Source: Candidatus Woesearchaeota archaeon
Lineage (GTDB): Archaea > Nanobdellota > Nanobdellia > Pacearchaeales > GW2011-AR1
Reading direction: 5' to 3'
DNA: 64,000 nucleotides
Assembly (NCBI GenBank): GCA_964608765.1
Contig: CAZSPD010000001.1
Span: 6,373-70,372 of the forward strand
Shown in pieces: positions 4,441-26,721 of the stretch (position 1 is the first letter of the stretch; every line of letters starts with the position of its first letter). The notes beneath the pieces are model-generated. The model saw nothing but the letters and a program-made list of their open reading frames with translations. It did no database searches and had not been told where the DNA came from. Made by a program: the position numbers and the translations under genes.

Positions 4441-5541
4441 ATGCTAGATTTTTTATTTTTAATAAACATTTTAATTTCTTTAAGCATATCTATATTTATT
4501 TTAATAAATATTTTTAGAAACTATCGCAAATACCTCCAACTTAGGAAAATATTTTATTTATTCTCAATAATTGGATTTATTTTTATTTTATACTCTATTA
4601 TATTCTCTTTATGGCTTTTGAACTTTACAACCTATAATCCCCAAGATTTTTTATTTGTGCATTCTATTTTAGTTTCAATAGAAGCGATCCTTCTTTTAAG
4701 TATAATCTATTATTTAAGAAAGAATAAAAAAATATTTTATTTATTATTTATTTATTCAATATTTCTTTTCTCGTTTATTATGGGATGGAATTTTACAAAC
4801 TTCCTTCTAATCTCTTCTTTAATGCTAATATTGATTTTATTTATATTATTTATTTCAGTCCCAAATTTTACAAGAATCTCTAAATTTGCAATATTTTACT
4901 GCTCTGTTTCTCTTTTATTGGAATCTACTTTTTTGTTTAAGGATCAACCTTCCCCTGTAATGAGCTTGGTTTCTAATCTATTTTTCTTCTTATTTATATT
5001 CTTCTTTTTAATGGATGTAAGGAATATTTCTCTTTCAGACTCAGACAAGAAAATAAAGTACAGAAAGAGCAATTATTTGTTTGATTTTATGAGATATTTT
5101 ATATTTATAGTAATCTTAACTAATTTTGTTTTTATAGGGACACTTGCAATACATGAGGCAGGGCACTTTTTTATGTCTAAATTTAATCCTAATTGTGAGT
5201 TAGAAAAAATAGTTTATGAGGGAGACCTTCCCCGCACAGAGATTTTATGTGATGGTTCTCCAGAATACATGAACTTAATTATCTTTGGAGGAATTCTTTT
5301 GCCCATTCTAGTAGCACTCTTATTATTTTTTGGAGGAGGGACATTCATGAAAGAAATTTCATTTTTAATAGCAGGATTCAATATCTTAATATCTTATAGA
5401 GATTTTGTTGATTTAGGATTTTCTTCATCAATATCTATATTTTTCTCAATGTTTGGGGCAGGAATAATCATTTTAGCAATATTACTTCTTGCAAAATCTA
5501 GGACAACTGAAGAAGAATTTATTTACTTAGCAAATAACTAG
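4441..5541 (+). CDS. Polytopic membrane protein carrying an HExxH motif (possible intramembrane/M50-like zinc metalloprotease)
   Basis: About 8 hydrophobic helices. HEAGH sits within LAIHEAGHFFM, and a CDG/LDG-like element occurs downstream. Metalloprotease function is an inference from the motif only. Confidence 0.5.
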   Translation: MLDFLFLINILISLSISIFILINIFRNYRKYLQLRKIFYLFSIIGFIFILYSIIFSLWLLNFTTYNPQDFLFVHSILVSIEAILLLSIIYYLRKNKKIFYLLFIYSIFLFSFIMGWNFTNFLLISSLMLILILFILFISVPNFTRISKFAIFYCSVSLLLESTFLFKDQPSPVMSLVSNLFFFLFIFFFLMDVRNISLSDSDKKIKYRKSNYLFDFMRYFIFIVILTNFVFIGTLAIHEAGHFFMSKFNPNCELEKIVYEGDLPRTEILCDGSPEYMNLIIFGGILLPILVALLLFFGGGTFMKEISFLIAGFNILISYRDFVDLGFSSSISIFFSMFGAGIIILAILLLAKSRTTEEEFIYLANN

Positions 5542-7009: not shown

Positions 7010-7249
7010 ATGGTTAAAAGTAAGATTAATCGTACGATTAATCGCAAAAAAGAGGATGTTTTGGAGTTAGGAATAATTGCTTCTTTGTCTAATTCTATTA
7101 CTCCCAAATCTACTCAAGAAATTGCAGATGAGATGAATAAACCTTGGCATTCTGTTCAAACACGCTGCTTAAGGCTCCAATTAAATAACAAGCTAATAGG
7201 GTTTAGAGTTGGAAGAATAAACCTTTGGCAGATAAAAAAGAGAAAATGA
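7010..7249 (+). CDS. Small putative winged-helix DNA-binding protein
   Basis: 79 aa, basic, with an HTH-like segment (TQEIADEMNKPWHSVQTRCLRL). Its stop overlaps the giant gene start as ATGA at 7246-7249. Confidence 0.45.
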   Translation: MVKSKINRTINRKKEDVLELGIIASLSNSITPKSTQEIADEMNKPWHSVQTRCLRLQLNNKLIGFRVGRINLWQIKKRK

Positions 7250-13200: not shown

Positions 13201-16200
13201 ATTGGTTATAGATGGTATTTTAATGATACTTCTGGAAATACGGTTTCAACTCCAATTTATACTTTAAGAACAGATGCTTATCCCCCTTCTGCATCTCAAG
13301 TTCAATGTGAGAGAGCAGGTTCTTGGAGAGATTGTAGTACATTTAAATTTTCAGATACAATTACTAGAGTTAGAATTAGCTGTGGAGGAGAAGTTATAAA
13401 TGCAGGATTTAATTTAATTAATATCCCAGATTCTCGAACTTTTTTTAATTCAAACTCAACTTCAAATGAGGGGAATTGGTGGATATATGATAATGCAGAT
13501 TTAATTATAAATGATTCAGGAACATTTAACTTAACTGGGGTGTGTTATGGCCCTTCTTCTCAAACAGAAAGCTTCGTAAATTGGACTGTTCCTTGGGGAA
13601 GATTAGAGGTAGACTTAGTTAATCCAAATATGAATACAAATGTAAACCCTAATGAATTTTTTGATTTTACAGCAAGTGTAAGATGTGTTGAAGGAGAGTG
13701 TGGATTTGTGAATATTACTTTAGATCCTACTGACTCCTGGTGGAATAAAGAGTATGAAAATAGGAGATTGATAAACATAACTAATCCAAGTAATTCAATT
13801 TTAGTTCAAAACTATACGATGCTTGTTGTTGTAGATACAACAGGAGAAGAATTCAAATCTAATGGAGATGATTTAAGAATAGTATACTGGAACGGTACTC
13901 ACAATATAGAAATAGATAGATACAACAGCACATCATTTGATGACCCTTCAACAGAGATTTGGTTTAGGATACAATCTAATATTTCATCTAGGGGGTATAG
14001 TGATAATTATTACATATACTATAATAATAAAGATGCATTAAATCCTCCAAGCAATGGAAGTAGAGTCTTTGAATTTTTTGATGATTTTAATAGACCAAAT
14101 AGTGGGACAATAGGAAATGGGTGGACAGAAACTTCAGGAACATGGGATATTTTAAATGGAAAAGTAAGAAATACTTATGGAGGAGATAGTGATTTAACAA
14201 GAACAACCATTACAGACAATCACTCTTTAAGAGCAATAGCAACCCCTGTGGTTTATGATGCAGATTTTAAACTTTCAATACGTTCTTCGACTTCTTTTAC
14301 ATCTGGATACACTTTTGGTTATCAAAATAATTACATGGAGCTAACCACAGAAGGACACACTACAAACAATTTAGGCTCTTCACCTTTTTCAATAATTGAA
14401 GGAAATACTTATGAAATAGAAATAAATACTGTGGGGAATAGAATAGTTGCATATGCAAACGGAAATATTATTTTTAATTTGACCAACACTGCTTTTTCTT
14501 CAGGAAGAATGCTTCTTCATTCATGGGATATTACTGATTTTGATGATGTTTGGCTAAGAAAATTAATTGACATAGAGCCAGTTTATTCTTTAGGAGCACA
14601 AGAAAAAGTTTCAAAAGGAATTTTATCTACTGTCGTAGGAGATATTCCATTTTACACCACTTCAAGAAATCCCATGGATTATAGAGGAACAAGTTGTTTA
14701 TCAGATATGAAATCAGGAGATGTTTGCGATGTAACTTGGCACGTGAATTCAACAGGAAAAATAGGTTCTATATGGGAGTTTTTTGTCTTTGCAAACACAA
14801 CTAATTATACAAATTATTTTAATTCTAGTGATACTTCTTCTTATATAAATATCACTATTGGAAATCTTCCTCCAGAAATCCCAGAATTAAATTTTCCTGC
14901 AAACAACAGTGCTCTAACAACTATTGGAGAATTTAATTGGAGTAATTCAAGAGACCCTACAGGAGATACTGTATATTATATGATTCAAATAAGTAATTCC
15001 CCTGAATTTACTAATTTAATTTACTCAAATTATAATATTCCAGAACAAGACACTATTACAGGGATCACTCCAACAGGAATCACTCAAGAAGGAGCATACT
15101 ATTGGAGAGTTTTAGCAACTGATTTAAAATCAAATTCTTCATGGAGTGAAACAAGAATATTTTATTATGATTTAAGCCCTCCAATAGTTAATTTAATTTC
15201 ACCAGAGCATAACTCAATTATAACTTACTCAAATACAATAGACTTTATATTTAATGTAAATGATTTATCAGATATTCAAAGATGTGATTTAATTATTAAT
15301 GACTCTGTAAGAGATACTTTAATAGATGTTGAGAAAAATACTAATGTAACATTTACTTTTTCTCTTTTAAATTCATTTTATAATTGGAGAATAACTTGTG
15401 CTGATTCAGCAGGTAGAGAAGGATATTCTGAGACTAGACTTTTAAATGTAGATGTTTCAAATAATCCTCCAAAAGTGGGGAAAATAGAGTGTGAGAAAAA
15501 AGGAGTCTGGCAAAATTGTAGCTCAATAGTATTTGGAGATACACTAACAAGAGTAAGAGTATTTTGCTCAGATCCAGAAGAATCAGTAGGAGAAGGAGTA
15601 GTAAATGCATCTATTAATTTAACAAATATTCCAGATGCACATACTTTCTTTGAGGAACTTAGTTTTGAAGAAGATGGATATGGTTTTTGGATGTTTAATA
15701 ATCTTAATTTTAAAATAAATGACTCAGGAGAATTTATTATTTATGCTACATGTTATGATGAGGATGCTCTCTCAGGAACAAACTCTACAAGTTGGAATGT
15801 TCCCTGGGGAACATTTGCTATTGATTTAATTAATCCCAACTCAGATATAAAAGTTCTGAAAGATAACTTTTTTACATTTAGCTCAAGAATAAAATGTATT
15901 AATGGAGAGTGTGGAAATGCAAATGTAACTCTAGACCCCCCTAATTGGTGGAATGAAACATGGAGTTCTAGAAAAACAATTAATATTACTAACTCTGGAG
16001 AAACTTCTCTTTTAAATTTCCCAATTTATATTAACTTATCTAAAGAACCAGAAATGCAAGCAAACTTTAATGATATTAGATTCATCAATGGTTCTTGTGG
16101 TTCTACAGGTAATTATTTGTATTTAGATTATGAAATAGAAAACTATACTTCTTCAAAAGCAGATGTCTGGATAAATATTCCTCGTTTTTCTCCAGGAGTA

Positions 16201-19200
16201 AATCAAATTTGTATGTATTATGATAATCAATTTGCACTGTCTGGACAAAATCCAATTAGAGTCTGGGATAATAGTTATTTGACTGTACAACACTTAGAAG
16301 AAACAGGAACAGGAATAAGGTATGATAGTAAATATAGAAGAAATTTTACTACAACAGGGTATGATAATGATGAAAATGTTTTTGGGATAATTGGAGGAGC
16401 AGACTTATTAGATGGAGTTAATGATGCACTTACTTCAGGAAATAGTTTCTTAAATAATTTGGGAGCATTCACAATTGAAGGATGGATTAAACCCCGTGCA
16501 TGGGGTTCAAGAGTTAGTTTTGTTGGACAAAATGATCTTGTAGAATTTTTCTTAGATGGTTCAAACACCATCTCAATCTGGACAGCTAATGGTGGAAGTA
16601 CTTCTACTTCTTATCCTTTCTCATTAAACACCTGGCATTATTTATCTGCAACTGGAACAGGAAGCAATATTTTAATTTACCTCGATGGAGTACAAGTAGC
16701 TTCAGGAGGTTCAAGCACTTCTAATTATGGAACTTCAACATATCACGTTAAAATTGGTGAAGGTGTAGTAGATGCATCTGGAGGATTTTTTAATGGTACA
16801 ATGGATGAAGTACGTATATCAAACATTTCCAGAAGTGCAGACTGGATTAGTCAATCTTATCAAATAATTAATAATCAATCTAATCTTGTTTCATTTGGGA
16901 TTAAAGAAGAAAAAACAAAAGGAATAATATCCACAGTAGCAGGAACAACTCCTTTTTACACAACAACTCCTAATCCTTTAGATTCAACAACATTTAGTTG
17001 TTTAGAAAATATGAAATCTTCAGGAGGTTCTTGTGATGTAAGCTGGAATGTTAATGCAACAGGAGAATTAAATTCAGTATGGAAGTTTTTTGTTACATCA
17101 AATAACTTGAATAACCAAGAATATTATAATACAAGTTCAAAATCTAAAGAAATAAACATTACAATATCCAGCCAAATACCTCCGACTGTACCTCAACTCT
17201 ATCGTCCATTAAATAATACAGCATATCCTGTAATTCCTAATTTAAATTGGACAAACTCAACAGATCAAAATAGAAGTAAAATATATTATATAATTGAAGT
17301 TAGTGATAATTATGATTTTTCAACAATAGTCTTTGCTAACTACAGTATTCCAGAGACTTCATCACCTACAGGAATTACCCCTACAGGAATAAGTCAAGAA
17401 GGAGCATATTATTGGAGAGTTAAATCTTCAAATTTAAATTCAAATTCTTCTTGGAGTGAAACAAGAGTATTTTATTACGATACTTCTGCACCTCAAATAA
17501 ATTTTATTAATCAAACAGGAGAAGATAATCGTCACATTAACAATACTAATTGGCTAAATAGGGGAGAGAATCTGACAATCTTTATTGATGTAACTGATAT
17601 TAATACAAATTATGTTTGGGTTGTAGTGTGGCAATCTATTGTAGGAGGAGTAGAAAAATTAAAGATATTCTTTAATAAAATAGGGGATTCATTATGGAAA
17701 GCAGAAATTTCAACAAATCAAACTTGGGATGATTCTTACAATTATACAATTTACGCAAATGATACTGTTGGACATCTAACAAATTATACATCTAATTTTA
17801 CTGTTTTAGGAGGAAACACTTCAATTTACTTAACTGAAGATTATGTAGTTCCTCCTTCAAATGTCTCTGTTTACGGGCACGCTTATCTTTCAAATTCAAC
17901 AGCTCTTTCAAATCATCCAATTAATATTTGGGTGGATGGAAAGTTTTTATTTTTACAAAATTTAACTCCTGAAGGAGAAGATTATATATTCTATAAACAA
18001 TTTTTAGAAACTTCTAACTCTGAATTTTCTCAAGGAACTTTTTATAATACAGAGGTTCAAAACAATCAAAATTTAATTTTATCAGATGGAGAAGCTTATG
18101 GGGAATTTACTAAAATATTAGATGCAGGAGCAATAGTGCATTGGGATAATCTCTCTTGGAATTTTCAAGGAGCCTCTTGTTCAGGAGTTTATACTTATCA
18201 ACACGGAGACACTAATGGATATTTAGGAACTGAGGATAGTTATATCAGTAGTGGATTCCCAAACATTAATTATGGTTCTAGTAATTCAATAATAGTTGAT
18301 GGTTCACCAACTTCTGAAAGAGGGTTAATTTTATTTAAAAATATAATTGGAAAAAGATTTAATCAAATCCCTGAAAATTCAACAATAAATAGTGCGAATT
18401 TAGCTTTTTATATTTCAGATACTGGAGACCAAGTTGGAGTTTACCAAGTTTTAGAAGAGTGGAATGAAAATTCAGTTACATATAATAATAGAGGAACAGG
18501 AAGCCCGTGGAGTTCTGCAGGATGCAGTGGAAGTCCTTCCCGTGCTATAATGCCTGATGATACTTTTACTGCAATAGTCCTTGGAAAATACACTGTAAAC
18601 ATTACAAATTCTTTAAAGAACTGGGTTTCAGGGCAAGAAAATTATGGATGGGTATTTAATATGCCTACAAGTAATGGTATTGAAATTAGAAGTAAAGAAT
18701 ATATTGAACTTTCAGAGAGACCTCTTTTAACAGTAGATTACGAGTCAGATGAATGTACTGATGTTCGAGTGTATATTAGAACTTCTAATAATAAACTAAC
18801 TTGGACAGAGTGGAGAGAAGTGTCTAATTTAGATTCAATAAATGATCCTAATATTTATAGCAGATATCTTCAGTATAAAGTAGAGCTATCTTCAACTAGC
18901 ACTTCTTTAACACCTACACTTGAAGATTTAACTTTCCATTATACTGCTTTAACAACAGACTCAAATGGTGATTACAATTACACCCTTGTATCACCATCAG
19001 GATTTGGATATCATAATGTAACTGTTAATACTGGTTTTAGTACAATATTTATTGAGAATACTACTAGCTTTTTTGTTCAAGCAGGATTACCTCCAAATGT
19101 TTCTTTAATTTACCCTGGAAACAATCACTGGTTCTCAGAGGAAGAGTTAACATTAATTTATAATGCATCTGACTTAAATGATGATATTATTCTTTCTGAA

Positions 19201-22200
19201 TTAATTATTAATGGGGTGGTTAATAGAACAAATTCTACTCCTATAATAAATAATGAGTATAATGAATTTATAATTAATCTTGAAAGTGGAGTGTATAATT
19301 GGACAGTCAATGTAACAGATAGTTCTGGATATACTGCCACAGCCCCTTTAAGAATATTTTATGTTGATTTAATTAATCCAAATATTTCCTTAGTATATCC
19401 TAGAGAAGGAGATTCGTTTGTTCTTAGTGAATTGAATTTAAGCTTTAATGTAACAGATAATATGGCAACTAACTTGAGTTGTAGTGTTACACTTGATGGA
19501 GAAGTAATTCATCCTTTAATTTGGGCAACAAGCCACACTATAACCAATGTTTCTTCTGGACCACTCACAGGAGGAGCCCATTATTGGAATGTAACCTGTA
19601 CTGATAATGCCTTGAGGAGTTTTACAAGTCCAACACTTAGCTTTGACATTTCAGATACTCCTCCAGAAGTTGTTTTAATTTTACCTGAGCCGGATTATTT
19701 AGATAGTGATGGAGAAGTTTCATTTACATACACTGTATCAGATAATTCAGGAATTTTAAATTGTAGTCTTTATATAGATAATGTCTTTAAACAAGCAAAT
19801 TCAACACCTGTGATAAATAATCAAGAAAACACTTTTAATATTCAGGGACTTTCAGAAGGAATTCATAACTGGACTGTTGAGTGTTTTGATTTAAGTTCAA
19901 ATTCTCATAAACCGTCTCCACTTAGTTTAAGAGTAGATTTATACAGCCCTTCTATAACTCTTAATTATCCAATGAATCTAGGAACTTCACTAACTTCAAA
20001 TGTTTATTTTAATTTTACAGTTGTTGACAGCTTTGACCCTTATTTAGATTGTAATTTAACAATAAATGGTTTAGTAGTAGACACATTTAATGCAACTTCA
20101 GGAGTAATGACTTCAAGATTAATTGAAAAACTTGCCGATGATACTAAGCTTTGGAGTGTGAGTTGTGTGGATGAAGCAGGGCATCTTGGAACTAGTTTAA
20201 CTTGGAGAGTAAATATAACAGAAGCTCCTAAAGTTGTACTTAACACATTAAATAATTCAAGATATAATTCTAATACAATTACTTTAAATTACACCCCTAG
20301 TGATAATACAGGTATAAGCTCGTGTAGCTTATATTTAAATGGGAATTTAAATCAAGTAAATCAGTCTCCTGTTTTAAATAAAATGCAAAACTCTTTTTCA
20401 GTTAATAGTCTTCCAGAAGGAATATATAATTGGTATGTTGAATGTAAAGATTATATAGGATTATCTAATCAATCTGAAACAAGAATATTTTACATAGATA
20501 GAACAGGCCCACTAATTGAAGTATTTTATCCTAGAGGAGATGATGTTTACAATTCAAATATTACATTTAACTTTACTGCAATAGATTATCTTGATACAAA
20601 TATACATTGTAATATTACAGTAAATTCTTCTGTAGTTGATTCAAATATCCTTGTATCTAATGGAACTCTTATAAGTAGAGAAGTTTCAGGAATAAGTGAT
20701 GGATACAATGTCTGGAGTGTAACTTGTTGGGATAGTTTAGGAAATGCAAATACTAGTCCAATCTTTGATTTTATAAGATACACTCATCCAAAAGTAACTT
20801 TAATTTCTCCTGAAAATAATACTTGGTTTAATACAAGTTCTTTTAATTTAACTTATTTCCCTGAAGATGATGGAGGTATAATTAGTGCTTCTCTTTATAT
20901 AAATGGAATTCATAATAGAAGTAATTCAACTATTATAACTAATAGAGCAAATAATGTATTTGAGATAAATGGATTCCCAGAAGGTTCTTACTTTTGGAAT
21001 GTAAATGTTACTGATACAACTTATTTAACTGGAATAGATGAAGAAAGAAGATTCTATGTGGATACAACTCCTCCAAACATTCAATTAAACTCACCTTATG
21101 AATCAGAAGTAATAACCACAAATAATGTTACATTTGATTTCAAAGTCTGGGATAATCTTGCAGAACACATTACTTGTGAATTTACCTTAAATGAAGAATT
21201 AGAATCTTCTAGAGTTTACATTAATGATTCAGGAGCACAATTTTATTCTATTTTAAGAGATGGAGATCACTCTTGGAGTATTAGGTGTATAGATAATGCA
21301 TCTAACCATGTTTATAGTGGAGAGATTGAGTTTAGTGTTAAAGCTCCCCCAATAGTTTCTTTAATAAGTCCAGAAAATAATTCAAGAACAGCAAGCTCAG
21401 AGATTGATTTTTCATACATCCCTTATGATTTAATAGGAATTACAAGTTGCAGATTTTACTTAGACGGAGAACTAAATTCAACAAATAGTCTTATCTCAGA
21501 GAATATAATCAATAATTTTAATATAAAAGGAATTTCAGAAGGAATTCATAGTTGGACTGTAAACTGTAGTGATTCAGATAATAATTGGAACTGGTCTGAA
21601 GAAAATATTTTTTATAGAGACATAACTCCTCCTTCAATTATTCTACACACACCTGAAAATGATACTGGCATTGATTCTAATTTAGACAGAATTTATTTTA
21701 ACTGGACTGCAATAGATATTTTAGATGATTCTCTTCAGTGTAATTTAACACTAGATGGAATAACTAGGAAACAAGATATTTGGATAACAAGTGGTATTTC
21801 AAATAGAGAGTATATTTTTACTTCAACTTTAGAACAAGGAGCACATTACTGGAATGTAACTTGTTGGGACCAAGTAGGAAATGCAAATACAAGTGAATTA
21901 AGAGTGTTTAATTTAACCTACCCTGATTTTTTAGTTAGTGACTCTGAAATATTTTTAAATGAAAGTTTACCTAAGGAAAACCAGCCTATTGAAATCACTG
22001 CAACAATACGTAATCTCGGAGGAGTAGATGTAGGAAATGTAACGGTCAGTTTTTATATAGGAGATCCTGATTTAGGAGGATATAAATTATCTCCAGATAC
22101 ATTTATAGCTATTACTAAATTCGGTGCAGTTAATGTTACTAAGTCTTGGACTCCTGAAATAGGTTCTTCAGAAGTGTTTGTTATTGTAGACCCTCCACTT

Positions 22201-22851
22201 ATTACAAATGGAACTTACAAAGAATTAAATGAATCAAATAATAAAGCAAGAAAAGAAATTAATGTTGGTTCGTGGCATTTCTTTTACGGAGATGTTTTTT
22301 CATCAAGTAATCTTGTTTTAGCAAATAATAATTCAAAGAATTTAATTAACTGGGATGCTGAAACACTTAACAAAGGGAATGTGTATGTAGTTGATTATGA
22401 TTCTCAAATATCTTGGACAAGTTTACAAGCAATAGGTAAAAATAAAGCGGGACAAATTAGTAATTCAGATTTTTCAGAAATAGATTCAGCATTAAACACA
22501 ATTGAATTTGAAGATTCTGTTTATAATGTTTATACTGATTTAGGAACTCCAAAATATTTTAGAGATATTATAGTATTTAGACATTTAATAGAAGAAGTCC
22601 CTATAATTAACTCTACAAATAATTCTAATTTTGTAACAGGAATACTTTGGGATACTTCAGATGACACAGGAGGGGCATCAGGAGAGTTTGATTTAACAGA
22701 TAGAGAAGATTTAGTGTTTATCTCTCCAATTAATAAACACGAGCAAGGAGCCTACGGAGTGTATGATTATGAATTAAGAGTCCCAGCAAGATTAAGAGAG
22801 TATAAGACAGGAGATTTAAAGAGTGCATCATTCTACGTAGAGCTTTTCTAG
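7225..22851 (+). CDS. Giant secreted multi-domain surface protein (5,208 aa in the track; the likely start is the ATG at 7246)
   Basis: One uninterrupted 15.6-kb ORF. The N-terminus is a signal peptide (MNKKGIIKLSLFFLVLFLILAIVFF). Modules, in order: Gly/Ala/Thr-rich x3, PPTYNSVS...GYRWY x5, TEKEPG x2, a duplicated ~1,000-aa super-module (Cys-rich, LamG/concanavalin-like with a DEVRIS motif, GIISTV, and FN3-like with YYWRV), a DNRLRE-like domain (WNENSVTYNNRG), about 13 Ig-like Big repeats (LISPENN...INGxxxxxNxT...EGxYNWTVxCxD), a CARDB-like domain (NLTYPDFLVSD...IRNLGG), and a C-terminal FYVELF. Confidence 0.85.
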   Translation: MADKKEKMNKKGIIKLSLFFLVLFLILAIVFFSIFSSASVSYNKENYFVGEEINLDFSGHRYCFIDIKTPSDKLNFECSERLSFVFEEPGEYIFNIDYLNEFEKFEINVLDKDFSQEDLGNLVQEYKNYTLNTPLINTQDYFIFDFKNKNSYTLNSSLEFNFREIGNYELIVFFPSGKKISRLGSNDRYLLNLLEEGEYLVEIVGGNRKTTYTFLSIKDFKKNLVQGKAEIGKPVKWIKELDLIEEGNFIEIPTLSGIKIENENGETFNEYSLVELDNKSYILIDSESPEKLFLEYITESPSLDEEIISETRKQVTIFSPEEFHYRDVLSYTSIPERLSAGQENLIKIYWIEEDTYLDFNALDTDSNGFLDYVEWIVPHLSTQTFEIIIITKADHLGSNKEFISDIYNEVRTLDNVWSEEINDGEYVRVVFEIPLSNLKDITIFPKVISGNPVVEVYEVDSNEKITEFSNLISEEYNKIYLENLISDTQDTFDLKIVGGSLQFDHIIDPTGGCIGGICTYNFTYSETWQVPNNVLNNNITVRVWGGGGAGAGRTNNGRTGGGGGGAFASSNIVVTPGENLRISVGDSVAGGTGNGANGIQSNVSWQNNTVAVRAAGGNGGTTTAGGSGGTVANSLGTIRYAGGNGAFTSSGNGGGGGGGAGTTGAGASATSSTGGIGNSLYGGNGSNGAGNANAPSGFIYGGGGGGVSRTSGSRSGGAGAQGFVQIIYQEIPDTTPPTYNSVSIDNIYSGEQTTFSIRVSDNEVLHPIGGYIFSTNNSGSWTNDTFVIFTETPSWANVTKLLNTNVKTAVGYRWYLNDSSGNTASTPIYTLTTLKLPQTFVYNFTVSEIWQVPNNILNNNITVRTWGGGGAGAGATSNLRTGGGGGGAFASSSIIVTPGENLTIRVGGSVAGTTGNGANGIQSNVSWQNNTVAVRAAGGTGGATNARGTGGTVANSLGTIRYAGGDGYYVSNSGNGGGGGGGAGTTGAGASATSSTGATGTSLYGGNGGTGSQNPAGTSGNGSNYGGGGAGLRRTSGNRIGGTGAQGFVQIIYQETPDITPPTYNSVSVDTIYSDTQATFSINVLDNSNIHPTGGYIFSTNNSGSWTNDTFVIFTETPSWANTTKSLNPNPGTNVGYRWYFNDSSGNTASTPIYTLRTEKEPGSKYTINSTGSASVYAVGTTSSNRWAAGTASSVAQRANMSLIDNRYARVATTANNRYPFYRFNFTIEEQVFTISSIFIRFTGYKTSSQTATLYVWNFATRNWVLISDIPDSPSDVTLNITNNIGDYIDDNQQLVIIAEGNRFSARGNSIFVDYVSVNVLYEEDTTPPTYNSVSIDNIYSGELTIFSINISDNAALHPNGGYIFSTNNSGLWVNDSFVSFTETPSWANTTKSLNPNKETAVGYRWYLNDSSGNTASTPIYTLTTLRLPQIFIYNFTGSGTWRVPDNVENNNITVRVWGGGGAGAGLTATGYGGGGGGGAFASSNIIVTPGENLRIYVGGSVAGTTGNGANGIQSNVSWQNNTLAVRAAGGNGGTTTAGGTGGTVANSLGTIRYAGGNGFRPTSGTTGGGGGGGAGTTGTGGSSTSQIGGTGTLEFGGDGGNGGALNGNGNPGQSYGGGGGGTRRTSGNRVGGGGAQGFVQIIYFGEEDITPPTYGDPSTDNIFSGELTTFSIEVSDNAALHPRGGYIFSTNNSGSWVNDSFVSFTETPSLANSIKTLHSTVGAVVSYRWYFNDSSGNTASTPIYTLRTEKEPGSKYTINSTGSASVYAVGTTSSNRWAAGTASSVAQRANMSLIDNRYARVATTANNRYPFYRFNFTIEEQVFTISSIFIRFTGYKTSSQTATLYVWNFATRNWVLISDIPDSPSDVTLNITNNIGDYIDDNQQLVIIAEGNRFSARGNSIFVDYVGVTTYYVKDVIPPSYSSVSVNNTEPDEPARFSIRVSDNIALHPRGGYIFSTNNSGSWMNDSFVSFTETPSWANVTKILSQEELIPIGYRWYFNDTSGNTVSTPIYTLRTDAYPPSASQVQCERAGSWRDCSTFKFSDTITRVRISCGGEVINAGFNLINIPDSRTFFNSNSTSNEGNWWIYDNADLIINDSGTFNLTGVCYGPSSQTESFVNWTVPWGRLEVDLVNPNMNTNVNPNEFFDFTASVRCVEGECGFVNITLDPTDSWWNKEYENRRLINITNPSNSILVQNYTMLVVVDTTGEEFKSNGDDLRIVYWNGTHNIEIDRYNSTSFDDPSTEIWFRIQSNISSRGYSDNYYIYYNNKDALNPPSNGSRVFEFFDDFNRPNSGTIGNGWTETSGTWDILNGKVRNTYGGDSDLTRTTITDNHSLRAIATPVVYDADFKLSIRSSTSFTSGYTFGYQNNYMELTTEGHTTNNLGSSPFSIIEGNTYEIEINTVGNRIVAYANGNIIFNLTNTAFSSGRMLLHSWDITDFDDVWLRKLIDIEPVYSLGAQEKVSKGILSTVVGDIPFYTTSRNPMDYRGTSCLSDMKSGDVCDVTWHVNSTGKIGSIWEFFVFANTTNYTNYFNSSDTSSYINITIGNLPPEIPELNFPANNSALTTIGEFNWSNSRDPTGDTVYYMIQISNSPEFTNLIYSNYNIPEQDTITGITPTGITQEGAYYWRVLATDLKSNSSWSETRIFYYDLSPPIVNLISPEHNSIITYSNTIDFIFNVNDLSDIQRCDLIINDSVRDTLIDVEKNTNVTFTFSLLNSFYNWRITCADSAGREGYSETRLLNVDVSNNPPKVGKIECEKKGVWQNCSSIVFGDTLTRVRVFCSDPEESVGEGVVNASINLTNIPDAHTFFEELSFEEDGYGFWMFNNLNFKINDSGEFIIYATCYDEDALSGTNSTSWNVPWGTFAIDLINPNSDIKVLKDNFFTFSSRIKCINGECGNANVTLDPPNWWNETWSSRKTINITNSGETSLLNFPIYINLSKEPEMQANFNDIRFINGSCGSTGNYLYLDYEIENYTSSKADVWINIPRFSPGVNQICMYYDNQFALSGQNPIRVWDNSYLTVQHLEETGTGIRYDSKYRRNFTTTGYDNDENVFGIIGGADLLDGVNDALTSGNSFLNNLGAFTIEGWIKPRAWGSRVSFVGQNDLVEFFLDGSNTISIWTANGGSTSTSYPFSLNTWHYLSATGTGSNILIYLDGVQVASGGSSTSNYGTSTYHVKIGEGVVDASGGFFNGTMDEVRISNISRSADWISQSYQIINNQSNLVSFGIKEEKTKGIISTVAGTTPFYTTTPNPLDSTTFSCLENMKSSGGSCDVSWNVNATGELNSVWKFFVTSNNLNNQEYYNTSSKSKEINITISSQIPPTVPQLYRPLNNTAYPVIPNLNWTNSTDQNRSKIYYIIEVSDNYDFSTIVFANYSIPETSSPTGITPTGISQEGAYYWRVKSSNLNSNSSWSETRVFYYDTSAPQINFINQTGEDNRHINNTNWLNRGENLTIFIDVTDINTNYVWVVVWQSIVGGVEKLKIFFNKIGDSLWKAEISTNQTWDDSYNYTIYANDTVGHLTNYTSNFTVLGGNTSIYLTEDYVVPPSNVSVYGHAYLSNSTALSNHPINIWVDGKFLFLQNLTPEGEDYIFYKQFLETSNSEFSQGTFYNTEVQNNQNLILSDGEAYGEFTKILDAGAIVHWDNLSWNFQGASCSGVYTYQHGDTNGYLGTEDSYISSGFPNINYGSSNSIIVDGSPTSERGLILFKNIIGKRFNQIPENSTINSANLAFYISDTGDQVGVYQVLEEWNENSVTYNNRGTGSPWSSAGCSGSPSRAIMPDDTFTAIVLGKYTVNITNSLKNWVSGQENYGWVFNMPTSNGIEIRSKEYIELSERPLLTVDYESDECTDVRVYIRTSNNKLTWTEWREVSNLDSINDPNIYSRYLQYKVELSSTSTSLTPTLEDLTFHYTALTTDSNGDYNYTLVSPSGFGYHNVTVNTGFSTIFIENTTSFFVQAGLPPNVSLIYPGNNHWFSEEELTLIYNASDLNDDIILSELIINGVVNRTNSTPIINNEYNEFIINLESGVYNWTVNVTDSSGYTATAPLRIFYVDLINPNISLVYPREGDSFVLSELNLSFNVTDNMATNLSCSVTLDGEVIHPLIWATSHTITNVSSGPLTGGAHYWNVTCTDNALRSFTSPTLSFDISDTPPEVVLILPEPDYLDSDGEVSFTYTVSDNSGILNCSLYIDNVFKQANSTPVINNQENTFNIQGLSEGIHNWTVECFDLSSNSHKPSPLSLRVDLYSPSITLNYPMNLGTSLTSNVYFNFTVVDSFDPYLDCNLTINGLVVDTFNATSGVMTSRLIEKLADDTKLWSVSCVDEAGHLGTSLTWRVNITEAPKVVLNTLNNSRYNSNTITLNYTPSDNTGISSCSLYLNGNLNQVNQSPVLNKMQNSFSVNSLPEGIYNWYVECKDYIGLSNQSETRIFYIDRTGPLIEVFYPRGDDVYNSNITFNFTAIDYLDTNIHCNITVNSSVVDSNILVSNGTLISREVSGISDGYNVWSVTCWDSLGNANTSPIFDFIRYTHPKVTLISPENNTWFNTSSFNLTYFPEDDGGIISASLYINGIHNRSNSTIITNRANNVFEINGFPEGSYFWNVNVTDTTYLTGIDEERRFYVDTTPPNIQLNSPYESEVITTNNVTFDFKVWDNLAEHITCEFTLNEELESSRVYINDSGAQFYSILRDGDHSWSIRCIDNASNHVYSGEIEFSVKAPPIVSLISPENNSRTASSEIDFSYIPYDLIGITSCRFYLDGELNSTNSLISENIINNFNIKGISEGIHSWTVNCSDSDNNWNWSEENIFYRDITPPSIILHTPENDTGIDSNLDRIYFNWTAIDILDDSLQCNLTLDGITRKQDIWITSGISNREYIFTSTLEQGAHYWNVTCWDQVGNANTSELRVFNLTYPDFLVSDSEIFLNESLPKENQPIEITATIRNLGGVDVGNVTVSFYIGDPDLGGYKLSPDTFIAITKFGAVNVTKSWTPEIGSSEVFVIVDPPLITNGTYKELNESNNKARKEINVGSWHFFYGDVFSSSNLVLANNNSKNLINWDAETLNKGNVYVVDYDSQISWTSLQAIGKNKAGQISNSDFSEIDSALNTIEFEDSVYNVYTDLGTPKYFRDIIVFRHLIEEVPIINSTNNSNFVTGILWDTSDDTGGASGEFDLTDREDLVFISPINKHEQGAYGVYDYELRVPARLREYKTGDLKSASFYVELF
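10631..11171. repeat. Direct repeat copy 1 (541 bp), apparently identical to 12404..12944
   Basis: The encoded 180 aa (YRWYFNDSSGNTASTPIYTLRTEKEPGSKY...NSIFVDYV) are identical in both copies. The antisense pseudo-ORFs 10774..10974 and 12547..12747 are 66/66 identical. The offset is exactly 1773 bp. Confidence 0.85.
12404..12944. repeat. Direct repeat copy 2 (541 bp), identical to 10631..11171
   Basis: See copy 1. The copies diverge immediately outside the boundaries (gtaG/gtaA upstream, aag/tgg downstream). Confidence 0.85.
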
Positions 22852-23045
22852 TTTTTTTCAAAATAATTTTTTAATTTTTATAAAATTTTACAAAACTTTT
22901 TTTAATTTTTTTAATTTTTTTTAATAATCATTTATAAACCCCTTAAATTTTAAATAAATTCAATAATAGTTACATTTTTGGAAACATTTATAAATTCAAA
23001 ATATTATTTTACTATATAATATCAAAAGTTAGGAGAAGATTTGAA

Positions 23046-23052
23046 AGGAGGT
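23046..23052 (+). promoter_or_regulatory. Shine-Dalgarno-like AGGAGGT 10 nt upstream of ATG 23063, with an A/T-rich TATA-like TATATAAT about 45 nt upstream
   Basis: Read directly. Supports use of Shine-Dalgarno-led initiation in this genome. Confidence 0.4.
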
Positions 23053-23059
23053 AAAAAAG

Positions 23060-23839
23060 GTGATGATTAACAAATTAAGTAAATTATTCCTAGTAACAAT
23101 TGTTTTAGGAATATTCTTGTTTGGATTTGTAGCAGCTGTTGAGCCATTTGGTGCTAATGTTACTGCAGTAGATACGTCTAGGTCTGACCCTTTGAATTAT
23201 CCTGCGGGAACTCACGAAGCTTGGGCAGGAAATGTAACTGAACTAACAATAGAGGGAGTTTCAGTAACTCAGTCTTGGCAAGGTTATTATGGTAATGTTT
23301 CAGGTACAATAATCTTAGCAGATAGTGATGAATATAGAATGTATGATTGGTCTCTCGCTAACCCGGAAGGTGAAGTGTACGCATCTCCATCTGGTTCTAT
23401 TTCGTGGGCTGACGTGCAATGTTACAGTAAAGATTTGGATAGTGTTTTAGGTGATGCATATGGGATAGCAGTTGATGATGTAGATAGAGTAAGTAATACT
23501 TTCTCAGTTGGAGGTACCCACGAAAAGGGAGGGGGTTTTGTTCACGACACTTTTTATACTGCTAATATAGAATTTGCTACTGGAACATGTGCAAGCACAC
23601 ATTTATTTACAGCAGGTGGAGTAGTAACATCAGGAACTTTTCAAGAGGTGTTGTTAGAAGATGCAGTTACAACGGATGGTGATGAACACGTAATTTTCGT
23701 ATCTATTTTAGATGAAGAAAGGCCTGATGGTTTCAATGGAAAACAAAGTATATACAACTTCCAAATGCTTGTCCTAGAAGATGGGCATACGACCAATGCA
23801 ATTCATACTACCTATTACTTCTGGGTAGAGTTAGAATAA
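23060..23839 (+). CDS. Secreted protein, paralog of 3545..4339 with the C-terminal YYFWVELE motif
   Basis: Signal peptide followed by AAVEPFGANV. The core SWQGYYGNVSGTIILADSDEYRMYDWSLA and the C-terminus FQMLVLEDGH...TYYFWVELE match the family. A Shine-Dalgarno AGGAGGT lies 10 nt upstream of the ATG at 23063; the track's first Met is a GTG. Confidence 0.7.
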   Translation: MMINKLSKLFLVTIVLGIFLFGFVAAVEPFGANVTAVDTSRSDPLNYPAGTHEAWAGNVTELTIEGVSVTQSWQGYYGNVSGTIILADSDEYRMYDWSLANPEGEVYASPSGSISWADVQCYSKDLDSVLGDAYGIAVDDVDRVSNTFSVGGTHEKGGGFVHDTFYTANIEFATGTCASTHLFTAGGVVTSGTFQEVLLEDAVTTDGDEHVIFVSILDEERPDGFNGKQSIYNFQMLVLEDGHTTNAIHTTYYFWVELE

Positions 23840-23917
23840 AATTTCATTTTTTATTTTTATATTTTTTTTAAGGAGTAAAGCAAAAGCGAATGAGGGGGAA
23901 AAAGAAAAACAAAAAAT

Positions 23918-24661
23918 ATGCACAAAAAAGAGAAAAAGATTATTCTATCTGGAATTTTACTAATCGGAGTTTTTTTAACTCTAATATTCATATTTTCAAA
24001 TGAATTAGTTTCTGCAGATCCTGAAGGTCCGAGTAGTGTTATTTCAGTTTGGAATAGTACTAAAAATGCAACTTCTTCTGCAATGGTTAATATTTCAGGA
24101 GGACAGATTGCAGCATTAAACCTCACTATTTCTTCTCAAAATACTCACTGGAAAGCATTTGTAGGATGGGTAAGTGGAGCTTTTACATTAGATGATGCTT
24201 CTGGTTCTACAATTTACGATTGGAAATTAAGTACTACAACAGGTAGAGTTTACACTACTAGAGACAGTTCAACAGTAGAGTGGAATTTACTTCAGTGTGC
24301 AAATACTGAAACGAACCTTGAAGCTGAAAATGTTGCCATGTTCCATAATAGAACTTCAGATAACATTACAGCAACTTTTAGTCATCCTGGAACACATAGT
24401 GCTTTTTGGGTTGCAGGGAGAAATATTGGTGCAAACACTTGTCCTACTTTAAACACATATGTTAATGATTTAAGCCAAGATGATGACTTTGAAGAAATGG
24501 CACTCTATGATGGCACCAGTATAATTTATGCCACAATCTTAGAAGATAATTTAGTAGGTTACGATGGCCAGCCCTATGATTTCCAGATGCTAGTTCCAGA
24601 GAATGGTTCTCAGGGTTTCACAGGTGCAACCCCGTATTACCTCTATGTGGAGCTAGACTAA
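23918..24661 (+). CDS. Secreted protein, more divergent paralog of the same family (C-terminal PYYLYVELD)
   Basis: Signal peptide. The segment WVSGAFTLDDASGSTIYDWKLS aligns with the YGNVSGTIIL..MYDWSLA core. The C-terminus is FQMLVPENGSQGFTGATPYYLYVELD. Confidence 0.65.
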   Translation: MHKKEKKIILSGILLIGVFLTLIFIFSNELVSADPEGPSSVISVWNSTKNATSSAMVNISGGQIAALNLTISSQNTHWKAFVGWVSGAFTLDDASGSTIYDWKLSTTTGRVYTTRDSSTVEWNLLQCANTETNLEAENVAMFHNRTSDNITATFSHPGTHSAFWVAGRNIGANTCPTLNTYVNDLSQDDDFEEMALYDGTSIIYATILEDNLVGYDGQPYDFQMLVPENGSQGFTGATPYYLYVELD

Positions 24662-24662
24662 G

Positions 24663-25649
24663 ATGGAAATAAAAAAAAGAAATAGCTTAATCGCTTTTTT
24701 TGTACTTTTGGAGATTTTTTTATTTGTAATATTCTTTTCTTTTTTTCCTCAAGGGGTCTTTGCAGGAGTAGGGGAAAACGTTACTGTAACAACACTTTTG
24801 TCTATTGGAAACGCATTTCCAGAAGTATTGAATGTAACAATTCAAAATAATGAATCAAGTATTACTCTTGTTTTAAATGATACTCGAGAAATTTTTTGTA
24901 CAGGATTAGTTCGAGATTATAATGGGTGGGAAGATATTAATCATGCTACGGCCGTGTTTTTCCATCCTGGAAATTCAACTTATGAGGGTACAGATGATAA
25001 TAATCACCATTACACAAATCACTCTTGTGATATAATTCAAGATGGAATTTACACTGCAATAGTTAATTGTACATTTGATATTTGGTATTATGCTAATCCA
25101 GGAACAACAACTAATGCTTGGAATTGTACAATAAGAGTAAATGACTCTTTAAATAAAGAAGCACTTGGTAGTGGAAGGATTGCTGTTTCACAATTATTAG
25201 GATTAGGAGTACCTGATTTTATAGACTATGGTGAAGTTAATGCTTCAGAAGTTTCTTTAGAGGTTCCTTCAGATGTAATTAATTATGGGAATGTTATGTT
25301 TAATTTATCATTAAATGGGTATGGATTCGTTCTAGGAGATGGTAATGCTATGAATTGCACTTTAGGAGCAATAGGGAATATTTCAATTCAACACGAGAAA
25401 TACAATTTAACAAATAGTAATCCAGGAGTTATAGATTTGGCTCAAGCTAATGCAAATTACACTAATCTAACTTCTAGTTTAGTAGTCCCTGCAGCTGCAA
25501 TAAAGAAATTTATGCTTGCACCTAGACAAGACGATGTGTCCAATGATGCAATTAAACCAGTTTACTGGAGAATTTTTGTTCCATCTGGAGTTGCAGGAAC
25601 TTGCCAAGGAAATATTATCTTTGGGGCAACAACAGCTAGAGGAAATTAA
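24663..25649 (+). CDS. Secreted, heavily N-sequon-decorated protein (hypothetical), translationally coupled to the upstream paralog
   Basis: Signal peptide (LIAFFVLLEIFLFVIFFSFF) and more than 20 N-x-S/T sequons. Its start lies 2 nt after the upstream stop. Confidence 0.55.
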   Translation: MEIKKRNSLIAFFVLLEIFLFVIFFSFFPQGVFAGVGENVTVTTLLSIGNAFPEVLNVTIQNNESSITLVLNDTREIFCTGLVRDYNGWEDINHATAVFFHPGNSTYEGTDDNNHHYTNHSCDIIQDGIYTAIVNCTFDIWYYANPGTTTNAWNCTIRVNDSLNKEALGSGRIAVSQLLGLGVPDFIDYGEVNASEVSLEVPSDVINYGNVMFNLSLNGYGFVLGDGNAMNCTLGAIGNISIQHEKYNLTNSNPGVIDLAQANANYTNLTSSLVVPAAAIKKFMLAPRQDDVSNDAIKPVYWRIFVPSGVAGTCQGNIIFGATTARGN

Positions 25650-26720: not shown

Positions 26721-26721
26721 A

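What the first reader, a model, noticed from the sequence alone, without database searches (positions are those of the whole stretch)
22762..24661. The giant protein and three flanking small secreted paralogs share a conserved C-terminal ~30-aa module ending Y(Y/F)x(W/Y)VEL(E/D/F)
Giant protein C-terminus: DYELRVPARLREYKTGDLKSASFYVELF. Paralogs: DFEMLVLENGHKSDVSTTPYYFWVELE (3545-4339), NFQMLVLEDGHTTNAIHTTYYFWVELE (23060-23839) and DFQMLVPENGSQGFTGATPYYLYVELD (23918-24661). All four end exactly at this motif, with no C-terminal TM or PGF-CTERM. The shared pattern D-(F/Y)-(E/Q)-(M/L)-x-V-(L/P)-E...G......YYxWVEL is consistent with a common extreme-C-terminal sorting, anchoring or assembly signal; alternatives such as a donor-strand or a partner-docking module cannot be distinguished from sequence. 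The three paralogs also share an N-terminal A-VEPFGA segment right after the signal peptide and an SWQGYYGNVSGTIIL core, and they flank the giant gene on both sides. I do not recognise this C-terminal signal from known archaeal systems (PGF-CTERM, PEF-CTERM, PIP-CTERM).
Basis: seen in the sequence. Interest (0 to 1): 0.75.

Follow-up and report, generated by a model that had tools for sequence, protein, structure and literature searches.

The report
New C-terminal surface-assembly domain in DPANN archaea
The shared 30-residue ending is real, but it is the last beta-hairpin of an undescribed ~190-residue extracellular domain found in three small secreted proteins, at the tail of a 5,200-residue adhesin and (in related genomes) on the outer face of a membrane ATPase, so it probably ties a giant adhesin to a cell-surface machine in tiny symbiotic archaea.

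Summary
Four proteins in the window end in [FY]Y..VELx. There are no other matches in six frames, and shuffles give 0.003 terminal matches.

The unit is not a 30-aa signal. Profile comparison aligns about 173 columns between the paralogs and the giant's C-terminus (93%, E 3e-7). AlphaFold2 places the motif as the last two strands of a beta-rich domain.

The family has at least 1,244 clusters at 50% identity. All organism-labelled records but one are DPANN MAGs. It has no Pfam, NCBIfam or PDB relative. In 134 of 144 representatives and in 31 of 31 giant orthologues, the protein ends exactly one residue after E[LI].

The genes sit in a conserved cluster: FtsK/HerA-like membrane ATPase, two coiled-coil proteins, paralog(s), HExxH membrane protein, secreted protein, giant, two paralogs, secreted protein.

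Full-length orthologues of the ATPase carry a fourth version of the domain in their extracellular loop (95.7%, E 1e-8). There the last strand is internal.

Best reading (inferred, about 0.45): a homotypic docking or assembly domain links free subunits and the giant adhesin to the ATPase ectodomain. Rivals that remain open are a donor-strand filament, a lectin, and a processed sorting signal.

The parts
22261..22848 (+). C-terminal domain of the giant protein (type III copy, about aa 5013-5208), directly after a CARDB domain
   Evidence: hhalign of the paralog profile against 32 giant C-termini: 93%, E 3.4e-7, 173 columns. The family HMM hits ORF aa 5022-5110 with E 3.4e-5. CARDB covers 21922-22248.
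22765..22848 (+). Terminal hairpin of the giant, DYELRVPARLREYKTGDLKSASFYVELF
   Evidence: Read directly from the sequence. Conserved as YDYE[LIMV][RK][VI]PA.LR.Y...[FY]Y.E[LIV]x-stop in 31 of 31 orthologues.
7225..22851 (+). Giant surface protein of 5208 aa. The likely start is the ATG at 7246. It has an N-terminal signal or anchor helix, Gly_rich_2 x3, GH114_assoc, DUF2341, Big_7, Laminin_G_3, Big_13 and CARDB, followed by the new C-terminal domain.
3545..4339 (+). Paralog A (type I, gene position P1). Signal peptide aa 1-26, conserved segment VEPFGA... aa 27-56, beta-rich core to aa 264. The terminal hairpin is at 4256-4336.
   Evidence: Family HMM E 2e-112. Position after the second coiled-coil gene is conserved in 35 loci.
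23060..23839 (+). Paralog B (type I, position P3, directly after the giant). The terminal hairpin is at 23756-23836.
   Evidence: HMM E 9e-102. AF2 model pLDDT 77, pTM 0.71. Position is conserved in 38 loci.
23918..24661 (+). Paralog C (type II, position P4). The terminal hairpin is at 24578-24658.
   Evidence: HMM E 6e-68. All 31 position-P4 genes fall in the type II clade, and all P1 and P3 genes fall outside it.
8..2302 (+). C-terminal 764 aa of a two-TM FtsK/HerA-like ATPase. The gene begins upstream of the window. This part holds CarboxypepD_reg-like ectodomain segments, TM2, the DUF87 P-loop domain and a coiled-coil tail.
   Evidence: Pfam DUF87 E 9e-12. Full-length orthologues are 1120-1262 aa and have a paralog-like domain at aa ~59-250.
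2327..3500 (+). Two overlapping genes for cytosolic coiled-coil proteins (107 and 285 aa), always found between the ATPase and paralog P1
   Evidence: No TM segment.
4441..5541 (+). Polytopic membrane protein with about 9 hydrophobic segments and HEAGH at aa 238-242 (5152-5166). It is weakly similar to M50 proteases.
   Evidence: Invariant H238, E239, H242, C252, C270 and D321 across 20 orthologues. Weak Peptidase_M50 hits in 4 of 20. No PDB sequence hit.
5576..6967 (+). Secreted 463-aa protein of unknown family, syntenic between the HExxH protein and the giant
   Evidence: Not homologous to the paralogs.
24663..25649 (+). Secreted 328-aa protein of unknown family that follows P4 in every locus extending past it
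   Evidence: Not homologous to the paralogs. No Pfam or PDB match.

Best explanation
The shared ending is the last beta-hairpin of a previously undescribed ~190-residue extracellular, beta-rich domain.

The domain occurs in four forms within one conserved gene cluster of Pacearchaeota/Woesearchaeota-type DPANN archaea:
- free single-domain proteins of type I (paralogs A and B);
- free single-domain proteins of type II (paralog C);
- the C-terminal domain of the giant adhesin, and of smaller cargo proteins in other genomes;
- a copy in the extracellular loop of a two-TM FtsK/HerA-type ATPase. This copy lies outside the window and is seen in all 13 full-length orthologues.

Proposed mechanism, with shown and inferred steps marked:
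1. The paralogs and the giant are exported by Sec. For the paralogs the signal peptide is cut at V-x-A. The motif statistics are shown; the cleavage is inferred.
2. They fold outside the cell, with one likely disulfide and N-glycans at two conserved sequons. The conservation is shown; the modifications are inferred.
3. The domain copies bind one another. The ATPase ectodomain copy acts as the membrane-fixed base, the free paralogs act as stacking or spacing subunits, and the giant's C-terminal copy plugs the adhesin into the assembly. This whole step is inferred.
4. The terminal strand and its free carboxylate lie in an inter-subunit interface, which would explain why types I-III never carry anything after E[LI]x. 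This step is inferred.

The ATPase and the two coiled-coil proteins would form the cytoplasmic part of the same machine. What the ATPase moves is unknown.
For: - Whole-domain homology. Paralogs against giant C-termini: 93%, E 3.4e-7, 173 columns. Paralogs against ATPase ectodomain: 95.7%, E 9.7e-9, 170 columns. Every other pair of cluster families scores below 2%, apart from four pairs that score higher only through N-terminal signal-peptide stretches or overlapping extracted segments. This acts as an internal control.
- Fold. The AF2 model is beta-rich from aa 58 to 259, and the motif forms strands 234-239 and 253-258.
- Position. The domain is obligatorily terminal in 134 of 144 representatives, including 20 proteins of 343-1635 aa, and in 31 of 31 giants.
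- Cargo-less members. Most family members are 225-300 aa and consist of the domain alone. That fits a structural subunit better than a tag.
- Fixed gene order across 86 loci: ATPase, cc1, cc2, P1(-P2), HExxH protein, sec463, giant, P3, P4, sec328. Type II paralogs occupy position P4 in 31 of 31 loci.
- Co-occurrence in divergent clusters. Cargo proteins of 330-979 aa with the giant-type C-terminal domain also sit next to free paralogs.
- Extracellular hallmarks. V/A/I-x-A precedes the mature N-terminus in 103 of the 114 (of 120) homologues that carry the mature-N-terminus motif. Sequons AGN[VI][ST] and GN[VI][ST]G are present in 117 and 119 of 120. Exactly two Cys occur in the mature part in 117 of 120.
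Against: - No interaction between domain copies has been shown.
- The only complex-like prediction was a direct A+B fusion in which only the A half had alignment depth. It gave pTM 0.47 and no confident inter-domain arrangement.
- The ATPase copy shows that the fold tolerates a C-terminal continuation. The strict terminal position could therefore be historical rather than functional.
- The window genome lacks the P2 paralog that most relatives have, so the set of subunits is not fixed.
- The ATPase ectodomain copy could not be checked in the window's own genome, because the gene is cut by the window start.
Confidence: 0.45

Rival explanations
1. Strand-exchange filament. The paralogs are pilin-like subunits that polymerise by donating a strand to the next subunit. 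The donated strand would be either the conserved N-terminal segment V(E/Q)PFGA... (as in chaperone-usher pili, archaeal threads, bundling pili and cannulae) or the C-terminal hairpin (as in type V pili). The giant would be the tip adhesin, with a pilin-like C-terminal domain that lacks the N-terminal segment, as FimH does.
For: - Sec signal peptide with a signal peptidase I site, followed by a conserved mature N-terminus.
- That segment (aa 24-58) is conserved, with P29 and G31 invariant, yet AF2 leaves it unplaced at pLDDT below 50. AF2 monomer models of thread subunits likewise leave the tail extended (paper 10.1101/2022.04.26.489512).
- The giant's C-terminal domain starts after this segment.
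- Several paralogs sit next to an adhesin gene.
Against: - In the A+B fusion prediction both N-terminal segments stayed below pLDDT 50, and each C-terminal hairpin stayed in its own domain. This is weak evidence, because the B half had no alignment depth.
- In fusion proteins of 343-1635 aa the 'N-terminal' segment is internal.
- I could not inspect coordinates for an acceptor groove.
Confidence: 0.2
2. Ligand-binding (lectin-like) domain. The domain binds a glycan or protein on the host or on the cell's own envelope. The giant carries it at its distal end, and the small paralogs are separate secreted binders. Domain copies do not bind one another. The terminal hairpin is conserved only because it is core structure.
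For: - The invariant positions are rich in aromatic residues: W73, W97, W116, F148, F165 and Y252, with Y253 and F254 nearly invariant.
- The fold is a beta-sandwich with only generic resemblance to carbohydrate-binding or Ig-like modules.
- The giant carries other adhesin-type domains, namely LamG, Big and CARDB.
- The giant and the mid-size fusion proteins have N-terminal hydrophobic helices that could act as the membrane anchor, which would leave the C-terminal domain distal.
Against: - Binding modules normally occur at varied positions in proteins. Here the position is terminal in more than 93% of members.
- Signal-peptide-cleaved single-domain binders would diffuse away unless they dock on something.
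- The fixed paralog types at fixed gene positions, and the copy on a membrane ATPase, are not explained.
Confidence: 0.2
3. True C-terminal sorting or processing signal. The ending is recognised after export, or by the cytoplasmic FtsK/HerA-type ATPase in the way that T4SS and T7SS substrates are. It would then be cleaved or used for covalent anchoring by a dedicated enzyme such as the HExxH membrane protein.
For: - Strictly terminal position and strong conservation.
- The HExxH membrane protein and an FtsK/HerA-family ATPase are co-conserved in the same cluster.
- The ATPase gives weak matches to TraD/TrwB-type coupling proteins.
Against: - The ending has no TM helix or basic tail. It is modelled as two strands inside a folded domain.
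- Most members have no cargo.
- All members have Sec-type signal peptides and extracellular hallmarks, so recognition by a cytoplasmic ATPase is unlikely.
- The protease's only family signal is to M50 enzymes, which cut TM helices.
- No NCBIfam or Pfam sorting-signal model matches.
Confidence: 0.07

Closest known systems
Chaperone-usher tip adhesins and their pilins (FimH with FimG/FimF/FimA)
   Same: An adhesin whose C-terminal domain is homologous to small free subunits encoded beside it. The free subunits have an extra conserved N-terminal segment that the adhesin's copy lacks. All are Sec-exported.
   Different: This is an archaeon with no outer membrane, and no chaperone or usher homologue is detected. 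No structural similarity to usher-type pilins was found. Strand donation was not predicted. The membrane partner here is an FtsK/HerA-type ATPase that carries its own copy of the domain.
Archaeal donor-strand filaments: Sulfolobus threads (Saci_0406), Pyrobaculum bundling pili (AbpA, TasA-like) and Pyrodictium cannulae (CanA)
   Same: Subunits of about 200 aa that are beta-rich and N-glycosylated, with a signal peptidase I site and a conserved N-terminal tail. They sit in a small gene cluster with a homologous accessory subunit and no known assembly machine (papers 10.1101/2022.04.26.489512 and PMC9245690).
   Different: No sequence or fold match. The strict C-terminal motif is not a feature of those families. 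Here a giant adhesin and a membrane ATPase carry the same domain.
Type IX secretion C-terminal domains (Por_Secre_tail) of Bacteroidota cargo such as SprB
   Same: A folded beta-sandwich domain at the extreme C-terminus of Sec-exported proteins of very different sizes, including giant adhesins. It acts as a sorting or anchoring module rather than a linear peptide signal.
   Different: That system is bacterial and depends on an outer membrane. Its domain is about 80-100 aa rather than ~190 aa. No model match was found. Here most members have no cargo, and no T9SS-like components are present.
Archaeosortase-type signals (PGF-CTERM, PEF-CTERM, PIP-CTERM)
   Same: A conserved motif at the extreme C-terminus of archaeal surface proteins.
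   Different: Those signals are tripartite, with a motif, a TM helix and a basic tail. This ending has no hydrophobic segment and is part of a globular fold.
C-terminal beta-signal of bacterial outer-membrane proteins; C-terminal knob domains of C1q/TNF and viral fibres
   Same: A last beta-strand or terminal beta-sandwich that is both structural and needed at the very end of the chain for recognition or oligomerisation. C1q uses three adjacent paralogous genes.
   Different: This is analogy from general knowledge only. No sequence or fold relationship was detected.

Membership tests
Archaeosortase / PGF-CTERM-type sorting signals | Motif followed by a C-terminal TM helix and a short basic tail | tested here: not met
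   Hydropathy scan finds no C-terminal hydrophobic window in A, B, C or the giant. The sequences end ...VELE...VELD or ...VELF.
Archaeosortase / PGF-CTERM-type sorting signals | Match to curated sorting-signal models | tested here: not met
   NCBIfam scan at E<=0.1 gives 0 families for paralogs A and C and nothing relevant for the giant's C-terminus. Pfam gives none.
T9SS C-terminal domain | Folded beta domain at the extreme C-terminus of Sec-exported cargo | tested here: met
T9SS C-terminal domain | Sequence match to Por_Secre_tail-type models, and T9SS components nearby | tested here: not met
   No Pfam or NCBIfam hit. No cluster protein matches a T9SS family. The host is an archaeon.
Donor-strand-complemented pilins (chaperone-usher, threads, TasA-like, cannulae) | Sec signal with a signal peptidase I site and a conserved N-terminal extension | tested here: met
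   VxA, AxA or IxA in 103 of the 114 (of 120) homologues that carry the mature-N-terminus motif. The extension is conserved but unplaced by AF2.
Donor-strand-complemented pilins (chaperone-usher, threads, TasA-like, cannulae) | Incomplete fold with an acceptor groove, filled by a neighbour's strand | tested here: inconclusive
   The A+B fusion model shows no insertion, but the B half had no alignment depth and coordinates could not be inspected.
Donor-strand-complemented pilins (chaperone-usher, threads, TasA-like, cannulae) | Fold similarity to known members | tested here: not met
FtsK/HerA superfamily ATPases (for ORF 8-2302) | P-loop domain matching DUF87/HerA/FtsK models | tested here: met
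   PF01935 E 9e-12 and PF05872 E 1e-9, both above their cut-offs. The subfamily is unresolved: CedD, HerA and TraD all score far below their cut-offs.
Peptidase M50 (site-2 protease) for ORF 4441-5541 | HExxH within a membrane segment plus a downstream conserved Asp as third ligand | tested here: inconclusive
   H238, E239, H242 and D321 (in DF.DLG) are invariant in 20 orthologues. Whether these residues lie in the membrane was not modelled.
Peptidase M50 (site-2 protease) for ORF 4441-5541 | Score above the Pfam gathering threshold, or a match to a solved S2P | tested here: not met
   The window protein gives 0 hits. Only 4 of 20 orthologues hit, best E 1e-3. The profile gives no hit against PDB.

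The most novel reading that the evidence does not exclude
The cluster encodes a previously unrecognised archaeal cell-surface machine. A ring-forming two-TM FtsK/HerA-type motor would carry extracellular copies of this domain that nucleate a stack or tube of paralogous subunits (types I and II), capped or decorated by a giant adhesin joined through its own copy of the domain. Pacearchaeota/Woesearchaeota-type symbionts would use it to hold on to a host, and perhaps to move DNA, protein or other material across the contact.
Probability: 0.2. Interest if true: 0.9.

Novelty: new variant of a known kind. Interest (0 to 1): 0.66.

Why it matters
DPANN archaea of the Pacearchaeota/Woesearchaeota type are abundant, uncultured and thought to live attached to hosts. 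How they attach and exchange material is an open question.

This finding gives a defined and widely conserved gene set to test by multimer modelling, heterologous expression, metaproteomics and cryo-ET. The set comprises a membrane FtsK/HerA-type ATPase, coiled-coil partners, a membrane HExxH protein, 3-5 small secreted paralogs and a giant adhesin. One domain family with no database entry ties them together.

It also adds a large family (at least 1,244 clusters at 50% identity) whose members almost all end at the same residue. That gives a simple, mutable handle: extend or delete VELE.

Tried and rejected
- Pfam and NCBIfam scans of the paralogs, the giant tail and the neighbouring genes gave no family for the domain.
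- Sequence-profile searches against PDB gave nothing for the paralogs, the HExxH protein or the 328-aa protein.
- A direct fusion of mature A and mature B was accepted by the AF2 tool. MAFFT placed all homologues on the A half. The model (pLDDT 64.7, pTM 0.47) showed no strand exchange. I treat this as a weak negative only.
- Mean-field DCA on about 360 family members was dominated by gap and subfamily signal. It could not be benchmarked without coordinates, so I did not use it.
- hhalign tests of whether the 328-aa or 463-aa secreted proteins are divergent paralogs were negative.
- I tried to recover the missing 5' part of the window's own ATPase gene by exact-protein look-up. The result was either not on record or a 1.5-kb contig.
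- A homologue search with the ATPase ectodomain profile returned only fragments.
- Seven literature look-ups found no description of this domain or cluster.
- I considered a mobile-element origin because of the Xer-like integrase. I rejected it because the cluster and the integrase are syntenic next to the rpS9/rpL13 genes in many genomes.

Full report
**What is in the window**

The window has about 30% G+C. From position 8 to 25649 it carries one uninterrupted + strand array of genes:
- 8-2302: the 3' part of an FtsK/HerA-like ATPase gene (Pfam DUF87 E 9e-12).
- 2327-2650 and 2643-3500: two coiled-coil proteins.
- 3545-4339: paralog A.
- 4441-5541: a polytopic membrane protein with HEAGH.
- 5576-6967: a secreted 463-aa protein.
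- 7225-22851: a 5208-aa protein with Gly_rich_2, GH114_assoc, DUF2341, Big_7, Laminin_G_3, Big_13 and CARDB domains.
- 23060-23839: paralog B.
- 23918-24661: paralog C.
- 24663-25649: a secreted 328-aa protein.

A Xer-like integrase gene and ribosomal-protein genes follow.

**Checking the observation**

The pattern [FY]Y.{0,2}VEL occurs four times among 789 six-frame ORFs, always one residue before the stop. Shuffling residues within ORFs gives 0.15 matches anywhere and 0.003 terminal matches per window. None of the four proteins has a C-terminal hydrophobic segment.

Two details need correcting. The VEPFGA and SWQGYYGNVSGTIIL blocks are exact only in A and B, which are 51% identical. Paralog C is about 30% identical to A and B and has ADPEGP and HWKAFVGWVSGAFTL at those positions.

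**The unit is a whole domain, not a 30-residue module**

- BLASTP already aligns paralog A with the giant's tail over SW..G..NW..G.VY..SW..Q (E 1e-6).
- A family HMM finds only four copies in the window. The giant's copy starts at SWHFFYGDV, window ~22270.
- I collected 31 orthologous giant C-termini from related loci. Profile-profile comparison with 63 paralogs gives 93% probability, E 3.4e-7, over 173 columns, from TQSWQGY to YVEL.
- An AlphaFold2 model of paralog B with a 63-sequence alignment (pLDDT 77, pTM 0.71) is beta-rich from residue 58 to the end.
- Residues 24-58 are unplaced at pLDDT below 50, even though they include the invariant P29 and G31 and the nearly invariant AGNVT.

**The family**

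A homologue search found at least 600 relatives of paralog B. The 120 listed are 225-295 aa long, have no Pfam domain and carry no name beyond 'hypothetical'. Of these, 119 end YYF[YW]VE[LI][EQ] or a close variant.

An exhaustive profile search of 1.84 billion representatives found 1,244 clusters with E<=1e-3. Among the 144 listed proteins that match the profile's end:
- 134 stop exactly at the profile end;
- 7 have one extra residue;
- 3 have two to four extra residues.

Twenty of the listed proteins are longer (343-1635 aa) and carry the domain at their C-terminus. In those, the 'N-terminal' segment (GANVT...RAP.D...AGNVTEL) is retained but internal.

All 31 giant orthologues end ...YDYE[LIMV][RK][VI]PA.LR.Y...[FY]Y.E[LIV]x-stop.

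Records that name an organism are Pacearchaeota, Woesearchaeota, Nanoarchaeota/Nanobdellota or unclassified archaeal MAGs. The single exception is a partial protein labelled Bacteroidota.

Family statistics point to Sec export and an extracellular location:
- V-x-A, A-x-A or I-x-A precedes the mature N-terminus in 103 of the 114 (of 120) homologues that carry the mature-N-terminus motif.
- The sequons AGN[VI][ST] and GN[VI][ST]G are present in 117 and 119 of 120.
- The mature part has exactly two cysteines in 117 of 120.

**No known relative**

**Genomic context**

In 86 related loci the gene order is conserved:

ATPase, cc1, cc2, paralog P1 (often a second paralog P2, which this window lacks), HExxH membrane protein, 463-aa protein, giant, P3, P4, 328-aa protein, Xer.

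Clustering the paralogs splits them into type I (positions P1, P2 and P3) and type II. All 31 genes at position P4 are type II.

In more divergent clusters, proteins of 330-979 aa that end in the giant-type domain also have free paralogs nearby.

The 328-aa and 463-aa proteins are not detectably related to the domain.

The HExxH protein has invariant H238, E239, H242, C252, C270 and D321. Its only family signal is weak similarity to M50 site-2 proteases, in 4 of 20 orthologues with best E 1e-3. It has no PDB match.

**A fourth copy on the ATPase**

The window starts inside the ATPase gene. The 13 full-length orthologues recovered (1120-1262 aa) have this layout:
- a basic cytosolic N-terminus;
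- TM1;
- a TG[FY] motif;
- an ectodomain of about 620 aa;
- TM2;
- the cytosolic P-loop domain and a coiled-coil tail.

The first ~190 residues of the ectodomain are homologous to the paralog domain. hhalign gives 95.7%, E 9.7e-9, over 170 columns. The matching blocks are:
- SEAGYISELNV with AGNVTELNI;
- YWHGLYGLALRV with SWQGYYGNVSGTI;
- GGREIYASTS with PEGEIYASTN;
- VNFQMLLP with HDFEMLVLE;
- TYYFFTDPYDxCPxGG with TYYFYVELE-end.

In an all-against-all control, every other pair of cluster families scored below 2%, apart from four pairs that score higher only through N-terminal signal-peptide stretches or overlapping extracted segments.

In the ATPase copy the last strand is internal. The fold therefore does not require a free end.

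**Interpretation**

Shown:
- One new domain is present in four forms in one conserved cluster.
- Three of the forms are strictly C-terminal.
- The domain has Sec-type signals and extracellular hallmarks.

Inferred:
- The copies bind one another.
- The ATPase-borne copy is the membrane-fixed base.
- The free type I and II proteins are subunits.
- The giant is attached through its own copy.
- The terminal strand and its carboxylate lie in an interface.

I put this model at about 0.45.

A donor-strand or strand-swap filament is the main sub-rival, at 0.2. It has the right hallmarks: a signal peptidase I site, a conserved unplaced N-terminal segment, and an adhesin copy that lacks that segment. 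These compare with archaeal threads. However, my only complex-like test did not predict it. That test was a direct A+B fusion in which only the A half had alignment depth, and it gave pTM 0.47. In addition, the fold resembles no known pilin.

A lectin-like binder with no inter-domain assembly (0.2) fits the conserved aromatic residues. It does not explain the strict terminal position, the fixed paralog types, or the copy on the ATPase.

A processed sorting signal (0.07) is unlikely. The ending is inside a folded domain, there is no TM helix, most members have no cargo, and the only candidate protease resembles enzymes that cut TM helices.

**Verdict**

It is wrong about extent and kind: the unit is a whole domain, not a 30-aa signal.

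The domain and the cluster appear undescribed. I file it as a new variant of a known kind, namely an adhesin that shares an assembly domain with small neighbouring subunits. There is a real chance (about 0.2) that the cluster is a new archaeal surface machine.

Noticed in passing
Outside the window, e.g. L025:5351-8710 (aa ~59-250). The window ORF 8-2302 is the 3' part of the same gene.: Full-length orthologues of the cluster's FtsK/HerA-like ATPase have two TM helices. Between them lies a ~620-aa extracellular loop whose first domain is homologous to the paralog domain (hhalign 95.7%, E 9.7e-9). In this copy the 'terminal' strand is internal (YYFFTDPYDxCPxGG).
   Followed up: yes
window 4441-5541: Polytopic membrane protein with invariant HExxH, two Cys and an Asp. 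It is always found between the upstream paralog(s) and the giant. Similarity to Peptidase_M50 is weak (4 of 20 orthologues, best E 1e-3), and the profile has no PDB sequence match.
   Followed up: partly
window 4339-4441, compared with L024, L025, L027, L029, L040 and others: Most related genomes have a second type I paralog (P2), and sometimes a type II paralog or a 328-aa-type gene, between P1 and the HExxH gene. This window has only 100 bases there, so its subunit set is smaller.
   Followed up: yes
window 8781-13330 (inside the giant gene): Three families of direct repeats, each with a 300-nt reference copy and 62-86% identical copies at spacings of about 800-975 nt (one gap of 1776 nt). 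They correspond to three Gly_rich_2 domains and to repeated blocks that include two apparently near-identical ~150-aa segments (EKEPGSKYTINSTGS...NSIFVDYV). This looks like recent internal duplication in the adhesin.
   Followed up: partly
window 24663-25649: Secreted 328-aa protein that follows the type II paralog in every locus extending past it. It has 46 invariant positions, including four Cys, and its own conserved end (...CQGNIxFGATxAxGx). It has no Pfam or PDB relative and is not related to the paralog domain.
   Followed up: partly
window 29605-30060 and 30399-32426: A 151-aa ORF followed by a second DUF87/Zot-like ATPase of 675 aa. In at least 10 related loci this pair is conserved downstream of the cluster, beyond the rpS9/rpL13 genes. 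Whether it belongs to the same system is unknown.
   Followed up: no
window 25887-27141: A Xer-like tyrosine recombinase (277 aa) and a 139-aa protein with a weak Recombinase-domain match. They sit between the cluster and the ribosomal-protein genes in many genomes. This looks like a conserved chromosomal arrangement rather than a sign of a mobile element.
   Followed up: partly
L025 ATPase aa ~53-57; proteins P0126, P0145 and P0165: A TG[FY] motif follows the N-terminal TM helix both in the ATPase and in mid-size (530-801 aa) proteins that end in the paralog-type domain. Its meaning is unknown.
   Followed up: no
window 7225-7246 and 23060-23063: The start codons listed mechanically are probably a little too far upstream. 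The giant more likely starts at the ATG at 7246 (MNKKGIIKL...). Paralog B more likely starts at the ATG at 23063, which matches the 258-aa database entry P0001.
   Followed up: partly
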